64,000 nt of DNA from the sequence record OQ561750, one strand, 5' to 3'. The stretch is from Escherichia phage LHE83. Positions 35,495-41,493 of this stretch are shown in pieces. The position numbers and the translations under genes are program-made. Numbering within the stretch: position 1 is the first letter of the stretch; each line of letters starts with the position of its first letter. Below the pieces are notes generated by a model. The model made no database searches. It worked only from the letters and a program-made list of their open reading frames with translations, and was not told the origin of the DNA.

Positions 35495-35512
35495 ACTTTT
35501 CTCCTTTAAAGA

Positions 35513-35520
35513 TATTTATA
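35513..35520 (-). promoter_or_regulatory. late promoter TATAAATA upstream of t
   Basis: Reverse complement of TATTTATA at 35513-35520; SD AGGAG follows. Confidence 0.7.
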
Positions 35521-35531
35521 GAGCTTATGCA

Positions 35532-36332
35532 CTATAGCCAGGAACCGTAGATAACACCTGTATTATGCCAAGTAGGAGAACTTCCAGCAACAGCAGCTCC
35601 TGCGCCGCCACCAGCGCCGACTTTTAGAACTTTACCACCATCAGACCATGCATTCTGACCTGCGCCGCCTGCATCGCCACCCTGACCAGAGTGGGCATTT
35701 CCGTATTGATAACCACCTCCTGGACCATCCAAAGAAGCTCCGCCACCTGAATATCCACCACCGCCGCCCGGGCCAAATGGACGTCCACCACCGCCACCGA
35801 TATCTTGCCAGTTAGCACCCGAGTGTACTCGATAGGCAATACCGCCACCGCCACCGCCACCGCCGCAGATAACCCCACCATTATTAATTCTTAAACGACC
35901 GCCAATATCATTTACAATACAAGTTCCACCCCATTGGCCGTTGCCATCGCCACCCGAGTGGGTCCATCCACCTTGACCACCTCGGCCCCATATATGAACC
36001 CCACCACCAATATTCAATTGAACATATTCGTTTGGAGTATCCCCATACATAAAGAACAATGGAACATCACGGGTATAAGATACTAATGTACCTGTAAGAT
36101 TAAACACAATAGGCGCACTACCGGCTTCAAGGCAACGGTCGCGGAACCATTGCCCATTAAAGTTATGGTCCGCTCCTAAAGTATGAATAATCTCACGAGA
36201 CCGACCAGCAAATTGTGACATCCAAGATGGGTTCCCTAGACGCAATTCTCTAGAAGCCGCAGACATCCAACGTTGACCTGTTTCAGCCACTGCTGATGTT
36301 CCAATCCAACCAGGTATTCCTACTACTGCCAT
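35532..36332 (-). CDS. 38: tail-fibre adhesin gp38 (T2-type, glycine-rich motifs)
   Basis: Conserved N-terminus [11 protein letters not shown] plus multiple poly-Gly blocks separated by variable segments. Confidence 0.8.
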
Positions 36333-36343
36333 AAAAACCTCCA

Positions 36344-36357
36344 GGGCCCGAAGGCCC
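36344..36357 (-). other. GGGCC-UUCG-GGCCC hairpin between genes 37 and 38, just 5' of the gene 38 SD
   Basis: Perfect stem/tetraloop on minus strand followed by UGGAGGUUUUUAUG. Confidence 0.6.
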
Positions 36358-36361
36358 TTTC

Positions 36362-39300
36362 TTATAATAATGATTTAATTAATGCTTTCAATTCAGCAAT
36401 TTCAGATTTCAATTCCTTGATTTCGTCAGTATGCTCGTTGATAGTAGCAGTATTTAAACCGATAATACCGTTATAGTTCAAACGAAGTAAGCCAGTCTCT
36501 TTATCTTCAGTCACAAGTTCAGGCAATACTTCTTGAACTTCCTGAGCGATTAAACCTGCGGATGGTTTAACTTCGTCTGTAACAGAGTTTTTAAGCAAAT
36601 AAGTATAACCACCTAAGAGTTTGGATTTCTCTTGAGCGTTATCAATAAGCTTAATTTCCGACTTACAGCGAATATCAGAACGGATATAAACGTCGTTAAC
36701 ATCGATATTATCACGAACATACATCCCGGCGTTAACGTTAAGGGCCACGTTGCCAAATGTCTGAGCAAGTCCGGCTCTAAAACTAAACACACCTTGACCG
36801 TTTGCATGTGCGTTGAAAATACCATCGGATTCCCAGACCAATCCAGTGTCAGCGTCACCAATAGCAATACACGGCGTAGTCCAGGCGGGTTCAACACCGA
36901 CACCAATACCAGCCCAACCAGAAACAATTCTTCCTGGGGAACTAAACTGACCGTTGGCCTTAAATTGATAAACCGCTGCAGGATGACCACTTTCCGGGGT
37001 ATTTTCTGATGAACGGACAATTATACAACCAGTACCCCATTCAGCATTACCACTGCGTAACGAGCCTAGTTCTACGCTTGTGTTATATCCATGCCCTGCT
37101 GAAGAACTTCGCCCTTTAATAATAGGATAGTACACGTTCCCGTTTAATTCGCCGTGTTCTACAAATATAGGGGCTTCAAGACCATACTGCGGGCTAATGG
37201 CACCCGGGTTTTGAGAGACCCATCTTGTGGCATTAACGTACATACGGTTTTCACTCATATTAACCAAACCAAACCCGCCCGGGCTAAATCCGATTGTCCT
37301 GTTATCTGATAAATCAATACCGGTAGTTGTTTTGTAGTTATAAAAAGATACTGAACCGCTTTCACCACCTTTACCAACAAACCAACTATTAGCACCACCA
37401 ACTTCTGAACGAATATGCGAACTATTAGTGGCATTAGGTGCTCTAATTACTAAAGCATCATCGGCCGCAGCAATAGTCAGCTTACCGGTCATCGTGTCGC
37501 CTTCTTTAGCCACACGGGAGGCAATAGCATCATGGATGTTGGTTATATCACCAGCAGAGCTAAATAATTTCCAAATATCAGAGAAGATATTACCATTTCG
37601 AGCAATAGTAGCTTCACCGCCGCCGACCTGTACGTTATCCGGGAAGTTAACTGTACCGTCAGCATTAAATCTTGAGGTATGACCTCCGGTCCCGTCTTCT
37701 TTAAGATGGTGTAAAACAAAAGTCCCGGAATTAATTTCAGTACCTAAAGACCAAACAGCTTTTCCTTGTAAGAATTTTTGCTTAACAATAGGATAATATT
37801 TACTTACTGCGTCATCATCAATTTCTTGGAAAACAGGAGCGGCCTGGGCATATTGAATATCATAACCACCTGCACCTGCACCATGTCCACCGAATTTAAT
37901 ATAGCCGTTTGCTGCAAAAGAAGCATAACTCAAATCTAGGTCAGGAATAACAACCTTACCTGTATCTAAAGCCATACTAAATGGACGGAGTGGGCCTATA
38001 TCACCGGTCATGCCCTCACCAAATGCAGTAGGAATAATGTGAAGACTTCCTTCTGAACGTCTAAAAATGACCCCGTAATCGTTGTTCCAGATGCGGAGCC
38101 CGTTAACAGCATTTGTAGTAATTTCACCAGCGGTGTGGACCGCTCTATCAACCAAAATATCTTTTTTAACAACAAGATTTTCGTTAATAGTTTGTTGCCC
38201 ATTTAATACAGCCTCAATGGTATTATCTTTATTGCGCTGGATATAATGCATCCAACTAATATCATCAGATATTTCCATCACGTTTTTACGAAAGCCATCT
38301 ACTGTATTAAAGGTGTTACCCCATACGGCAATAGACATATTATCAACAGAGCTCTGGCCGGTGGTATAACCTTTAAAAAGCAAAATCGAGTTGTTATTAC
38401 GACCGTCAATATTAACAGAACCACCAACAACATCAATATTACCAGGAGTAACTAACAAACCACCAGCGGTGTTAACGTTTGTAGTACCCTTACCACGGAA
38501 ATAGTGGTGATAATTGCCACCTTGGTAATAACCTAAAAGAGTTTGACCATCACCAAATGCGTTATTATCATGATAAGTAACAACAGTGGCTAATGCATAG
38601 TTTTCCGACGGAGGAGTGGTTAAATCGGTACCGTTTACAGAATAACCCATAACCATTTTTCTAAGACTGGTGGTTTCTGCAGGGCTGTACAGGAAAGTTC
38701 TCGTGCCGTTATTAACGCTGAAATAATATCCATCCTGATGCCATTTTAACCCGGTGTCATTATCGCCAAGAGCAATTGAAGCCGTTCCTAATTCAGAATA
38801 TCCTTTAGAGTTGCCTGGGGTGCCTACAGAAATAGAATGACCGGCTTTCAATCCGCCAGACCAGGTAAACGACCAAAGATAAGCTTCTAAGCCATCGCCG
38901 GCATACCAGGTTATTCCGTCGTTATCTTTAACTTCATGGAAAATGCTCGAACTAACTGCATTTCGCATAACACGAAGGTGGTTAATAGCCGTTTCACTTT
39001 CAGCCAATGGGTTATTATCGGCCATTGAATAGATATCATAATCGCCTGTCTTCTTCCCATTTGTAATAACTTTATCGGTCAGAATTTGTGGAGACGAAAT
39101 AGATTTCCATGCTGATACTTCAGGTGAAGTGAACAAACCATTACCTGAAAATGCATAAGTGCTTTCGCTTGCAGTAGAATAATCTTGTACACGAATATTA
39201 ACTACCTGATTGGTCAAACCTGCATTATTAGGAGAAAAGATAATACCACGCTCACGGTCATCGCCATCAAAGAAACGAAGGTGAGAAGTTGAAGCGCTCT

Positions 39301-39640
39301 TAGAAATAAGTTCGCCACCATGGGTCATTATCTGACCTGCAGCAATAATATCACGAGTTACGCGAGCAATACCGTTGAGATTAAAATCACCAATTTGAGT
39401 AAATACACCATTTAGGGTGTAATCGCCGGTCTGGTTGTAGTTACCGTTATGAATAACATTGCCGTCAATATTACCACCTTTAGCAAAGCCAAGGTCGATA
39501 ATCGCTCCAGTATCGTCTTTAGTAAAAAGTAATCGGTCCTTTAAGTTAATAGCCAGTTCACCTTCAGCCAACTGGGCCGGTGTCGGACGTACACCGGCTA
39601 CTTTACTTCTTTTAAATTGGATTTGCTTTAAAGTAGCCAT
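36362..39640 (-). CDS. 37: long tail fibre distal subunit gp37 with C-terminal intramolecular-chaperone-like domain
   Basis: 1092 aa; conserved N-terminus; C-terminus [13 protein letters not shown]...coiled coil. Confidence 0.9.
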
Positions 39641-40339: not shown

Positions 40340-40371
40340 CGTAGAAAACGAAAAAGGAACCCGAAGGTTCC
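40340..40371 (-). terminator. intrinsic terminator after gene 35 (GGAACC-UUCG-GGUUCC + U-rich) on minus strand
   Basis: Same hairpin sequence as + strand terminators, in reverse orientation, abutting gp35 stop. Confidence 0.65.
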
Positions 40372-41493
40372 TTAATATTTTTCTCTAAATTCAGCGACCC
40401 AAACCTGACCAGGTTTAGTGCCTGTTTTATCATATAGCTGGGCTATGGTAGTACCCATATTTTTAGTTTCCGTACCAAAGTTCATACGAATACCGTTAAC
40501 ACCAAATTCAGCAGGTTTTGGCCGAGGTTCTGATTCAGATATCTCACCGAACATAACATTTCGAACTCCACCTTGTCCGGCCGAAGCTGTTTTTCTGGCA
40601 TAAAGGGTAAAGTCTGTAGTACCTTCAGGAACCATTACTACCCGTTCAAATGTCATCCATGCACCAGCAGGAACGTTGGAAGGAACGTCCATATTAACTG
40701 TCCCGGTTAAAGCGCCTGAGGCATTAAAAAATCTAACAGACATCTGAGAGGTCCCGACGTCTTTTAAAGCTTGGTCACACATTAATTGAAACTTAAGGTA
40801 AAAGAATTCACCTGGTTTCATATTATAATCTGTTAATGGGGTAGTAGGAGATTCGGTAGGAAATCGCTTAATTTCATCTCCATCATTGCTTAGATAAGTG
40901 CTTTCATCTTCAACAATTCTGACAGGATATCCTGTACCACCGACGTCGCTGATATCATCAAATACCACTTCTAACGGAGTAGAAACATCTTCGACAAATA
41001 CCCCATCATTATAAAGCACATGTTCCATTACTATGGTATTCCTTCCTGAAACATAAAATGCAGAATAAGACGGCTCGAAGCGGTCTATTAGCCATTTAGA
41101 TGGAAATGCAGTACTTCCTGCTGCACGGAACCAATCGATAAGTTTTTGTGAAGCATTTAATCTACCAGAAGATACTAAACAAACTATTCTATTAGCCGGT
41201 ATAGAATTTATATATGTTATAAAAGCTTCAGAGATAACATCAAAGTCTTTAGTAAAACTATAAGTTTTGTTAGCAACGATTTTAGGTTCGGCGCTAACAT
41301 CGATTTCTATAAGGTTTAATCCATTTTGAAAATTCTGGGAACCGAAGTTCCCATCTTGAAATTTAACATATGCTTTTGTGGTAGACTTAGTACAACTACC
41401 CGCTATACTAAGTTTATACCTCACAGCATTGTTTTCAGATAATGTAGGAACCTGGACATATCCTTGTCCAAATTCTGCCATAAATCTTTCCAT
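40372..41493 (-). CDS. 35: long tail fibre hinge gp35
   Basis: 373 aa; position. Confidence 0.8.
   Translation of the reverse strand: MERFMAEFGQGYVQVPTLSENNAVRYKLSIAGSCTKSTTKAYVKFQDGNFGSQNFQNGLNLIEIDVSAEPKIVANKTYSFTKDFDVISEAFITYINSIPANRIVCLVSSGRLNASQKLIDWFRAAGSTAFPSKWLIDRFEPSYSAFYVSGRNTIVMEHVLYNDGVFVEDVSTPLEVVFDDISDVGGTGYPVRIVEDESTYLSNDGDEIKRFPTESPTTPLTDYNMKPGEFFYLKFQLMCDQALKDVGTSQMSVRFFNASGALTGTVNMDVPSNVPAGAWMTFERVVMVPEGTTDFTLYARKTASAGQGGVRNVMFGEISESEPRPKPAEFGVNGIRMNFGTETKNMGTTIAQLYDKTGTKPGQVWVAEFREKY

What the first reader, a model, noticed from the sequence alone, without database searches (positions are those of the whole stretch)
35532..39640. T2-type receptor-recognition module: glycine-rich gp38 adhesin plus gp37 with C-terminal intramolecular-chaperone-like domain
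gp38 contains several poly-glycine blocks separated by short variable segments, the organisation of T2/Ox2-type adhesins that bind the gp37 tip and determine receptor specificity. gp37 ends with [13 protein letters not shown]... followed by a coiled coil, resembling autoproteolytic intramolecular chaperone domains of other fibres; T2-type gp37 is known to be C-terminally processed. Host range is therefore likely set by the gp38 variable loops rather than by the gp37 tip as in T4.
Basis: partly seen in the sequence, partly recalled or inferred. Interest (0 to 1): 0.5.

Follow-up and report, generated by a model that had tools for sequence, protein, structure and literature searches.

The report
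T2-type tail-fibre adhesin module, already characterised
This is the ordinary receptor-recognition end of a T-even phage long tail fibre: a fibre protein with a self-cleaving folding domain, capped by a glycine-rich adhesin. It comes from phage LHE83, whose adhesin and OmpA receptor were published in 2024.

Summary

**The two genes.** 35532-36332 (-) encodes a 266-aa gp38 adhesin. It matches Pfam GP38 and Gp38_N and the solved PP01 and S16 gp38 structures. 36362-39640 (-) encodes a 1092-aa gp37. Its last 105 residues are a Peptidase_S74 intramolecular-chaperone (IMC) domain.

**gp37 cleavage site.** The IMC begins DVYIR|S988-D-I-R-C-K993, with the Ser/Lys pair conserved. This aligns with the cleavage site reported for S16 gp37 and with T2's NVYIR|SDIRLK.

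**gp38 features.** The three docking tryptophans (W9, W22, W37) are present. So are the glycine-rich motifs, including an 8-Gly run, with variable loops between them.

**Identity of the phage.** Both proteins are exact matches to Escherichia phage LHE83, a Dhakavirus (GenBank OQ561750). Its gp38 ("GP213") was shown by antiserum blocking to be the receptor-binding protein, and OmpA was shown to be its receptor (PMC10987938).

**What I add.**
- OmpA was predicted independently from loop identity to the OmpA binders AV119, FL08 and RB32.
- A recombination junction lies near 36183 (gp38 codon ~50). The Bp7-like gp37 tip, IMC and gp38 docking domain are joined there to an E33/LQ5-like specificity cassette.

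Only the cleavage of gp37 in this phage remains inferred.

The parts
36362..39640 (-). gene 37: long tail fibre distal subunit precursor, 1092 aa (117.4 kDa)
   Evidence: ORF; PHROG 1699 full length; exact match to LHE83 WEY10219.1
36680..39640 (-). predicted mature gp37, aa 1-987 (105.8 kDa), ending in DVYIR (36680-36694), the strand expected to form the gp38 docking tip
   Evidence: Alignment with S16 DLNVS^SDRRIKK and fPS DVYIR^SDGRLK cleavage sites (PMC7917993)
37940..38392 (-). internal gp34-like trimerisation domain of gp37 (aa 417-567)
   Evidence: Pfam Gp34_trimer 7e-07; PDB 5nxh/4uxe T4 gp34 about 1e-15
36662..36679 (-). S988-D-I-R-C-K993: predicted autoproteolytic Ser/Lys pair, with the scissile bond R987|S988
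   Evidence: Motif position; D989 and K993 invariant and S988 present in 24 of 25 IMC homologues
36365..36679 (-). C-terminal intramolecular chaperone domain (Peptidase_S74), aa 988-1092, 105 aa, 11.6 kDa, predicted to be released after trimerisation
   Evidence: Pfam PF13884 47 bits; 6f45_A alignment; AF2 pLDDT mostly 86-97 over this part; Foldseek 7dc3 9e-6 and 3gw6 probability 1.0
36368..36475 (-). terminal long helix of the IMC (aa 1056-1091), heptad-like, expected to form the trimeric helical bundle
   Evidence: DSSP helix 176-211 of the modelled fragment; sequence
36343..36358 (-). intergenic 37/38 hairpin AGGGCC-UUCG-GGCCCU (cUUCGg tetraloop), followed by GGAGG and the gp38 ATG
   Evidence: fold z-score only -1.4 for the 56-nt context
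35532..36332 (-). gene 38: monomeric tail-fibre tip adhesin, 266 aa (26.7 kDa)
   Evidence: Pfam GP38 + Gp38_N; PHROG 2056; PDB 9v85 and 6f45_D; exact match to LHE83 WEY10218.1
36198..36332 (-). gp38 attachment domain (aa 1-45) with W9, W22 and W37; Bp7-type allele
   Evidence: Gp38_N hit; the three Trp invariant in A1; 100% identical to UGJNEcP4 and 92-98% nt identity to Bp7
36183..36183 (-). approximate recombination junction (gp38 codon ~50). 5' of it the DNA is Bp7-like; 3' of it E33/LQ5-like
   Evidence: 60-nt sliding identity
35988..36197 (-). gp38 linker and N-terminal part of the beta-helix domain (aa 46-115)
   Evidence: AF2 strands 48-115; alignment to 6f45_D
35583..35987 (-). gp38 specificity domain (aa 116-250): glycine-rich motifs alternating with hypervariable segments. 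It includes the 8-Gly run (35841-35864) and HVS2 [14 protein letters not shown] (35799-35840)
   Evidence: HVS2 is 100% identical to the OmpA binder AV119
35535..35582 (-). conserved gp38 C-terminal motif [16 protein letters not shown], closing the beta-helix
   Evidence: P253, W255, G259, I261 and G263 invariant

Best explanation
This is the distal receptor-recognition module of a T2/S16-type long tail fibre, from the Dhakavirus LHE83.

Proposed sequence of events:
1. gp37 is made as a 1092-aa precursor.
2. Its C-terminal 105-aa intramolecular chaperone (aa 988-1092) nucleates and registers the trimer. This step is inferred from family knowledge.
3. The chaperone then cuts itself off at R987|S988 using the S988/K993 pair. 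This is inferred by homology to S16 and T2.
4. Cleavage exposes a tip built from the DVYIR strands.
5. One gp38 monomer docks on that tip through its three-helix N-terminal domain, inserting W9, W22 and W37 into three equivalent pockets. This is inferred from the S16 structure.
6. The gp38 glycine-rich motifs form a polyglycine-II sandwich. It presents the hypervariable loops, which bind the surface loops of OmpA.

For this phage, gp38 as the receptor-binding protein and OmpA as the receptor were shown experimentally in PMC10987938. The loop-level contacts are inferred.

The module is a natural chimera. The gp37 distal third, the IMC and the gp38 docking domain are Bp7-like. The gp38 specificity cassette from codon ~50 onward is E33/LQ5/RB32-like. 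This fits the different receptors reported for the two phages (LamB/OmpC for Bp7, OmpA here).
For: - ORFs and motifs.
- Family hits: Pfam GP38, Gp38_N and Peptidase_S74 all above their cut-offs; PHROGs.
- Solved relatives: PDB sequence matches to PP01 gp38, S16 gp38 and the S16 gp37 C-terminus.
- Structure models: the gp38 AF2 model (pLDDT 86.8) matches 9v85 at 1.8e-27 and 6f45_D at 5e-26. The IMC model matches 7dc3 (TM 0.72) and 3gw6.
- IMC absent from the S16 crystal: the 6f45 gp37 chains show only 68-72 modelled residues out of a 204-residue construct, consistent with IMC loss.
- Conserved residues: D989, K993 and GLIAQEV are invariant and S988 is present in 24 of 25 homologues.
- Cleavage site: the same (D/N)VYIR|SD(I/R)R(C/L)K junction occurs in Bp7, LQ5, RB32 and T2, and DVYVR|SDIRVK in E33. 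The literature on S16 cleavage and the DVYIR site is PMC7917993, and on T2/T6 gp37 cleavage PMC3157838.
- Receptor: the loops are 86-100% identical to OmpA-dependent AV119, FL08 and RB32 (PMC12032242; PMC3157838).
- Identity with LHE83 and its published RBP and OmpA data.
- Mosaic junction.
Against: - Cleavage of gp37 has not been shown for LHE83 or for any Dhakavirus that I found.
- The gp37 shaft ahead of the IMC was poorly modelled as a monomer (pLDDT below 50), so the docking surface was not modelled.
- BL21 lacking ompA still adsorbs about 50% of LHE83, so OmpA is not the sole determinant on every host.
- Single HVS substitutions can switch the porin bound, as with RB68 Q206L, so receptor inference from similarity alone would be weak. 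Here it is backed by experiment.
- That GP213 of the paper is the 266-aa gp38 rests on its description (GRM/HVS layout, N-terminus like Bp7 GP38), not on a stated accession.
Confidence: 0.9

Rival explanations
1. T4-type arrangement: gp37's own C-terminal tip binds the receptor, and gp38 is only an assembly chaperone that is absent from virions.
For: Several deposited relatives still carry the legacy annotation 'distal long tail fiber assembly catalyst' for gp38.
Against: - gp38 hits only the adhesin families and no tail-fibre-assembly family.
- gp37 shows no match to the T4 gp37 needle among PDB sequences at E<=0.01.
- Anti-gp38 serum blocks LHE83 adsorption, so gp38 is on the particle.
Confidence: 0.02
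2. The S74 domain is present but is not cleaved, or is cleaved elsewhere, so it stays on the fibre and gp38 docks in a different way.
For: No direct data exist for this phage. One distant homologue (P0122) has Pro in place of the nucleophile Ser, so non-cleaving variants may exist.
Against: - S988, D989 and K993 are intact here.
- The junction is the same as in T2 and aligns with the S16 cleavage site.
- The gp38 Trp prongs need the tip surface, which is reported to be exposed only once the IMC has been cleaved off (PMC7917993; PMC6851490).
Confidence: 0.05
3. Host range is not set by the gp38 loops alone. A second receptor also contributes, either an LPS core feature or another porin. It could be read by the same gp38 or by another fibre part.
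For: - BL21 lacking ompA retains about 50% adsorption.
- RB32, with an 87-88% identical gp38, needs OmpA and is also sensitive to LPS composition.
- T-even phages use gp12 for a secondary LPS receptor.
Against: - An ompA frameshift gives full resistance in the natural host E82.
- The LPS effects seen for RB32 may be indirect.
- This reading complements the main model rather than replacing it.
Confidence: 0.3

Closest known systems
Escherichia phage LHE83 gp37/GP213 (GenBank OQ561750; PMC10987938)
   Same: Both proteins are identical in sequence. gp38 is confirmed as the receptor-binding protein and OmpA as the receptor.
   Different: Nothing differs; the window is this phage. The paper does not discuss the gp37 IMC or map the recombination junction, and GenBank labels gp38 'hypothetical protein'.
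Salmonella phage S16 gp37-gp38 tip complex (PDB 6F45, Dunne et al. 2018)
   Same: Same architecture: a trimeric gp37 with an autocleaved S74 IMC, capped by one gp38 with Trp prongs, a beta-helix and a polyglycine-II sandwich.
   Different: gp38 is about 46-52% identical. S16 cleaves at S|SDRRIK rather than R|SDIRCK. The S16 IMC is 113 aa against 105 aa here. The pre-cleavage shaft differs. From my own knowledge, S16 targets Salmonella OmpC.
Phage T2 / T6 gp37-gp38 (classical T-even adhesin system)
   Same: Gene order 37-38-t is the same. gp37 is processed at its C-terminus and gp38 is the adhesin. T2 carries NVYIR|SDIRLK.
   Different: T2 gp38 is 47% identical and T6 gp38 63%, with different loops. 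T2 uses FadL/OmpF and T6 uses Tsx. T2 gp37 is 1341 aa.
RB32 / AV119 / FL08 gp38 ('type 1' OmpA-binding adhesins)
   Same: HVS2 is 86-100% identical, including the R-V-H-S-G-A stretch implicated in OmpA contact. HVS1 is 93% and HVS3 87-89% identical. The receptor is OmpA.
   Different: These sit in Tequatrovirus or other Tevenvirinae backgrounds, with a different attachment-domain allele (51-80% identity) and a different C-terminal tail (65%).
Escherichia phage Bp7 gp37-gp38
   Same: The gp37 distal third, the IMC (100% aa identity) and the gp38 attachment domain are essentially the same.
   Different: The gp38 specificity cassette is unrelated in its loops (43-85% nt identity). The receptors reported are LamB and OmpC.
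Endosialidase K1F intramolecular chaperone (3GW6) and MyRF ICA domain (7DC3)
   Same: The fold and the Ser/Lys autoproteolytic motif are shared.
   Different: These are distant in sequence (11-23% identity), and the client domains differ (tailspike; eukaryotic transcription factor).

Membership tests
gp38 tail-fibre adhesin (Pfam PF05268 + PF21721; T2/S16 type) | Sequence membership above the curated threshold | tested here: met
   PF05268 scores 212.8 bits (cut-off 25) and PF21721 73.2 bits (cut-off 25). PHROG 2056 matches at 1e-105.
gp38 tail-fibre adhesin (Pfam PF05268 + PF21721; T2/S16 type) | N-terminal three-helix attachment domain with three conserved tryptophans | tested here: met
   W9, W22 and W37 are present and invariant in the 13-sequence alignment. 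AF2 predicts helices at 11-17, 19-29 and 38-41, though at low pLDDT, as expected without gp37.
gp38 tail-fibre adhesin (Pfam PF05268 + PF21721; T2/S16 type) | Conserved glycine-rich motifs alternating with hypervariable segments, and a conserved C-terminal motif | tested here: met
   Gly runs are invariant while the segments between them drop to 0-34% identity against T2, T6, M1 and S16.
gp38 tail-fibre adhesin (Pfam PF05268 + PF21721; T2/S16 type) | Fold: beta-helix plus polyglycine sandwich, as in 6F45_D and 9V85 | tested here: met
   Foldseek gives 1.8e-27 (TM 0.71/0.85) and 5.2e-26 (TM 0.76/0.82). This is a predicted model, not an experimental structure.
gp38 tail-fibre adhesin (Pfam PF05268 + PF21721; T2/S16 type) | Gene lies directly downstream of gene 37 and upstream of holin t | tested here: met
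   the same order occurs in RB32, T2, S16, E33 and Bp7.
gp38 tail-fibre adhesin (Pfam PF05268 + PF21721; T2/S16 type) | Present on virions and binds the receptor | not testable with these tools
   Literature for this phage: anti-GP213 serum blocks adsorption, and OmpA is the receptor (PMC10987938).
Peptidase S74 C-terminal intramolecular chaperone domain | Sequence membership above the curated threshold, at the extreme C-terminus of a fibre protein | tested here: met
   PF13884 scores 47 bits (cut-off 22) over aa 988-1044 of 1092.
Peptidase S74 C-terminal intramolecular chaperone domain | Ser/Lys pair in an S-D-x-x-x-K motif at the domain start | tested here: met
   S988-D-I-R-C-K993. D and K are invariant and S is present in 24 of 25 homologues.
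Peptidase S74 C-terminal intramolecular chaperone domain | IMC fold, ending in a long helix that forms the trimeric bundle | tested here: met
   AF2 pLDDT is mostly 86-97 over this part, with a helix at 1056-1091. Foldseek matches 7dc3 at 9e-6 and 3gw6 at probability 1.0.
Peptidase S74 C-terminal intramolecular chaperone domain | Autoproteolytic release after trimerisation | not testable with these tools
   Inferred from S16 and T2/T6. No data exist for LHE83.
T4-type distal fibre (gp37 needle tip + gp38 chaperone) | gp37 C-terminal receptor-binding needle homologous to T4 gp37 | tested here: not met
   No T4 gp37 structure appears among the PDB sequence hits at E<=0.01. The C-terminus is an S74 IMC instead.
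T4-type distal fibre (gp37 needle tip + gp38 chaperone) | gp38 belongs to the tail-fibre assembly chaperone family | tested here: not met
   Only the adhesin families were hit.

The most novel reading that the evidence does not exclude
The gp38 of this phage may recognise a second, unidentified receptor besides OmpA, since BL21 lacking ompA keeps about half its adsorption. Separately, the natural junction at gp38 codon ~50 may define a portable boundary at which whole specificity cassettes can be moved between Dhakavirus and Tequatrovirus fibres, provided the docking domain stays matched to its gp37 tip and IMC.
Probability: 0.3. Interest if true: 0.3.

Novelty: already known. Interest (0 to 1): 0.08.

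Why it matters
The value is practical rather than conceptual.
- It corrects weak annotation. gp38 of LHE83 is deposited as 'hypothetical protein', and relatives are labelled 'assembly catalyst' or 'tail protein and peptidase'.
- It predicts a cleavage site in gp37 (R987|S988) that the LHE83 paper did not address.
- It locates the module boundary that phage engineers would use to retarget Dhakavirus fibres.

It does not open any new biological question.

Tried and rejected
- **The window's own record among phage hits.** Megablast of the module against the phage collection returned no full-length near-identical record; the best full-length matches were 86-89% identical. That briefly suggested an unsequenced recombinant. 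The exact-protein look-up then showed that the window is LHE83.
- **A deep alignment for the gp37 C-terminus.** The homologue search returned only 24 short proteins. That was enough for the IMC, but the fibre shaft modelled badly as a monomer, so the gp38 docking surface could not be examined.
- **The 37/38 hairpin as a regulatory structure.** The fold z-score was only -1.4, so I report it as an observation only.
- **T4-type reading.** Considered and rejected; see the rival explanations.
- **Primary papers.** I could not read the original T2 gp37 processing paper (Drexler et al. 1986) or Dunne et al. 2018 in the library. Both are cited through papers that quote them.
Full report
**1. Observation**

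The stated interval coincides exactly with two adjacent minus-strand ORFs.
- gp38 lies at 35532-36332 and is 266 aa.
- gp37 lies at 36362-39640 and is 1092 aa.
- They are flanked upstream by gp36, gp35 and gp34, and downstream by holin t.

gp38 is 27% glycine overall and 42% across residues 108-250. Its Gly runs include an eight-residue run at 157-164 and five-residue runs at 179-183 and 189-193, separated by non-Gly segments. The Gly codons explain the local G+C spike of 0.536 against about 0.35-0.44 in the flanks.

gp37 contains [13 protein letters not shown] from residue 988, and it ends in a long predicted helix with a heptad-like pattern.

**2. What it is**

*gp38.* It matches Pfam GP38 (7e-63) and Gp38_N (1.6e-20), and no chaperone family. 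It matches PHROG 2056, 'tail fiber protein; host specificity'. It also matches the solved adhesins of PP01 (9v85, 6.5e-69) and S16 (6f45_D, 4.8e-53). An AF2 model built on 54 homologues has mean pLDDT 86.8. That model superposes on 9v85 (E 1.8e-27) and 6f45_D (E 5.2e-26), and nothing else in the PDB scores below E = 1.

The three tryptophans that dock S16 gp38 into pockets on the gp37 tip (PMC6851490) are present as W9, W22 and W37. They are invariant across T2, T6, M1, Ac3, S16, RB32 and others.

*gp37.* Pfam places Peptidase_S74 at residues 988-1044, at 47 bits against a cut-off of 22. Residues 921-1091 align with the S16 gp37 construct 6f45_A at 4.5e-29.

The domain starts S988-D-I-R-C-K993. 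In 25 homologues D989, K993 and the GLIAQEV core are invariant, and S988 is present in 24. The modelled domain has pLDDT mostly 86-97. It matches the MyRF ICA domain (7dc3, 9e-6, TM 0.72) and the endosialidase 'Intramolecular Chaperone' 3gw6 (probability 1.0).

PMC7917993, citing Dunne 2018, reports that S16 gp37 autocleaves its last 113 residues between the serines of DLNVS^SDRRIKK, exposing the gp38 docking face. The same paper notes that this site aligns with DVYIR^SDGRLK in T2-like phages. The window reads DVYIR|SDIRCK.

The same junction occurs in relatives: NVYIR|SDIRLK in T2, DVYIR|SDRRLK in RB32 and LQ5, DVYVR|SDIRVK in E33, and an identical sequence in Bp7. PMC3157838 states that T2 and T6 gp37 is proteolytically cleaved at its C-terminus and then capped by gp38. 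Consistent with this, the 6f45 gp37 chains show only 68-72 modelled residues out of a 204-residue construct.

The predicted products are therefore mature gp37 of 987 aa (105.8 kDa) and a released 11.6-kDa IMC.

No T4-type gp37 needle and no T4-type gp38 chaperone signature was found.

**3. Whose it is**

The backbone is a Dhakavirus. It is 95-96% identical at nucleotide level to E33, PSD9 and ABTNLS3, and 93% to Bp7.

An exact-sequence look-up identifies both proteins as Escherichia phage LHE83: WEY10218.1 'hypothetical protein' and WEY10219.1 'tail fiber'. The LHE83 paper (PMC10987938) reports the following.
- ORF213/GP213 has the glycine-rich motif / hypervariable segment (GRM/HVS) layout. 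Its N-terminus resembles Bp7 GP38 and its C-terminus differs.
- Antiserum against GP213 abolishes adsorption.
- An ompA frameshift gives resistance in the natural host.
- Deleting ompA in BL21 halves adsorption, and complementation restores it.

That GP213 is the 266-aa gp38 rests on this description, not on a stated accession.

**4. Independent receptor inference**

Before I found that paper, the loops already pointed to OmpA.
- The closest characterised gp38s are RB32 (87-88% identical), which needs OmpA plus LPS (PMC3157838).
- Next are FL08 and AV119 (82-83% identical), the OmpA 'type 1' binders (PMC12032242).
- HVS2 ([14 protein letters not shown]) is 100% identical to AV119 and contains the R-V-H-S-G-A stretch modelled there as the main OmpA contact.
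- T6 (Tsx) and T2 share only 0-32% identity in the loops.

One caveat applies. Single loop substitutions can switch the porin bound, so similarity alone would not have been conclusive.

**5. Mosaic structure**

Sliding identity shows the following pattern.
- gp37 aa 1-700 resembles E33 and Bp7.
- gp37 aa 700-1092 is 90-100% identical to Bp7, but only 30-48% identical to E33 over aa 751-1050 (62% in 701-750, 88% in the last 42 aa), and 8-40% to LQ5 throughout.
- The first ~150 nt of gp38 are Bp7-like (92-98%).
- From about 36182 to the stop codon the DNA is 95-100% LQ5-like in all but one 60-nt bin (85%). E33 is 92-100% identical in most bins and 70-87% in three. Bp7 is only 43-85% identical.

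The crossover therefore sits near codon 50, just after the attachment domain. The attachment-domain allele travels with its gp37 tip and IMC allele, while the specificity cassette is exchanged. This is the behaviour described by Tetart and Trojet for T-evens. It fits the different receptors reported for Bp7 (LamB/OmpC) and LHE83 (OmpA).

**6. Mechanism and status of each step**

| Step | Status |
|---|---|
| Domains, motifs and predicted folds present | Shown here |
| gp38 is the virion receptor-binding protein; OmpA is the receptor | Shown by others for this phage |
| IMC-assisted trimerisation | Inferred by homology |
| Cleavage at R987/S988 | Inferred by homology |
| 3:1 gp37:gp38 stoichiometry and Trp-prong docking | Inferred by homology |
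| Loop-level OmpA contacts | Inferred by homology |

The residual adsorption to BL21 lacking ompA leaves room for a second receptor.

**7. Verdict**

The system is textbook T2/S16-type, and this exact phage has been published. Novelty: already known. Interest: low.

Noticed in passing
window 36343-36358 and 40354-40373 (minus strand): Two intercistronic hairpins closed by a cUUCGg tetraloop. AGGGCC-UUCG-GGCCCU lies between genes 37 and 38, and AAGGAACC-UUCG-GGUUCCUU lies at the 3' end of gene 35 (overlapping its stop codon) ahead of gene 36. Such stable hairpins are known from T4 intercistronic regions (own knowledge). The fold z-score for the first was unremarkable at -1.4.
   Followed up: partly
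window 40372-41493 (gp35): The gp35 hinge protein gives a Pfam hit to ILEI ('Interleukin-like EMT inducer', PF15711) just above the gathering score: 28.5 bits against 27, over residues 57-130.
   Followed up: no
window ~37540 (gp37 residue ~700): A second mosaic junction lies inside gp37. Upstream of it the protein resembles both E33 and Bp7. Downstream it resembles only Bp7 (90-100% against 30-48% for E33 over residues 751-1050).
   Followed up: partly
P0081 (303 aa, from an E. coli assembly): A chimeric protein in which the N-terminal ~155 residues of a gp38 adhesin, up to the long Gly run, are fused to a gp37-type tip with a ...DVYIR|SDRRLK S74 chaperone domain. It could be a recombination product or an assembly artefact.
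   Followed up: no
L004 1072-1863 (Bp7 gp38, P0051): The deposited Bp7 gp38 protein departs from all relatives over its last ~45 residues (…GEDGIITYLDLAVVLLVERY…) and lacks the conserved PxW…IYG end. This looks like a frameshift in the record.
   Followed up: no
P0122 (IMC homologue, alignment A2): One S74 domain has Pro in place of the nucleophile Ser (IRPDRRVK). It may be a non-cleaving variant or a sequencing error.
   Followed up: no
window 35532-36332; GenBank WEY10218.1: The experimentally validated adhesin of LHE83 is deposited as 'hypothetical protein'. Homologues carry misleading names such as 'distal long tail fiber assembly catalyst' and 'tail protein and peptidase'.
   Followed up: yes
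window 35500-35999: G+C rises to 0.536, against about 0.35-0.44 around it, with strong negative GC skew on the + strand. The 73 Gly codons of gp38 (GGT 36, GGC 20, GGA 12, GGG 5) account for this. It is not a sign of foreign origin.
   Followed up: yes
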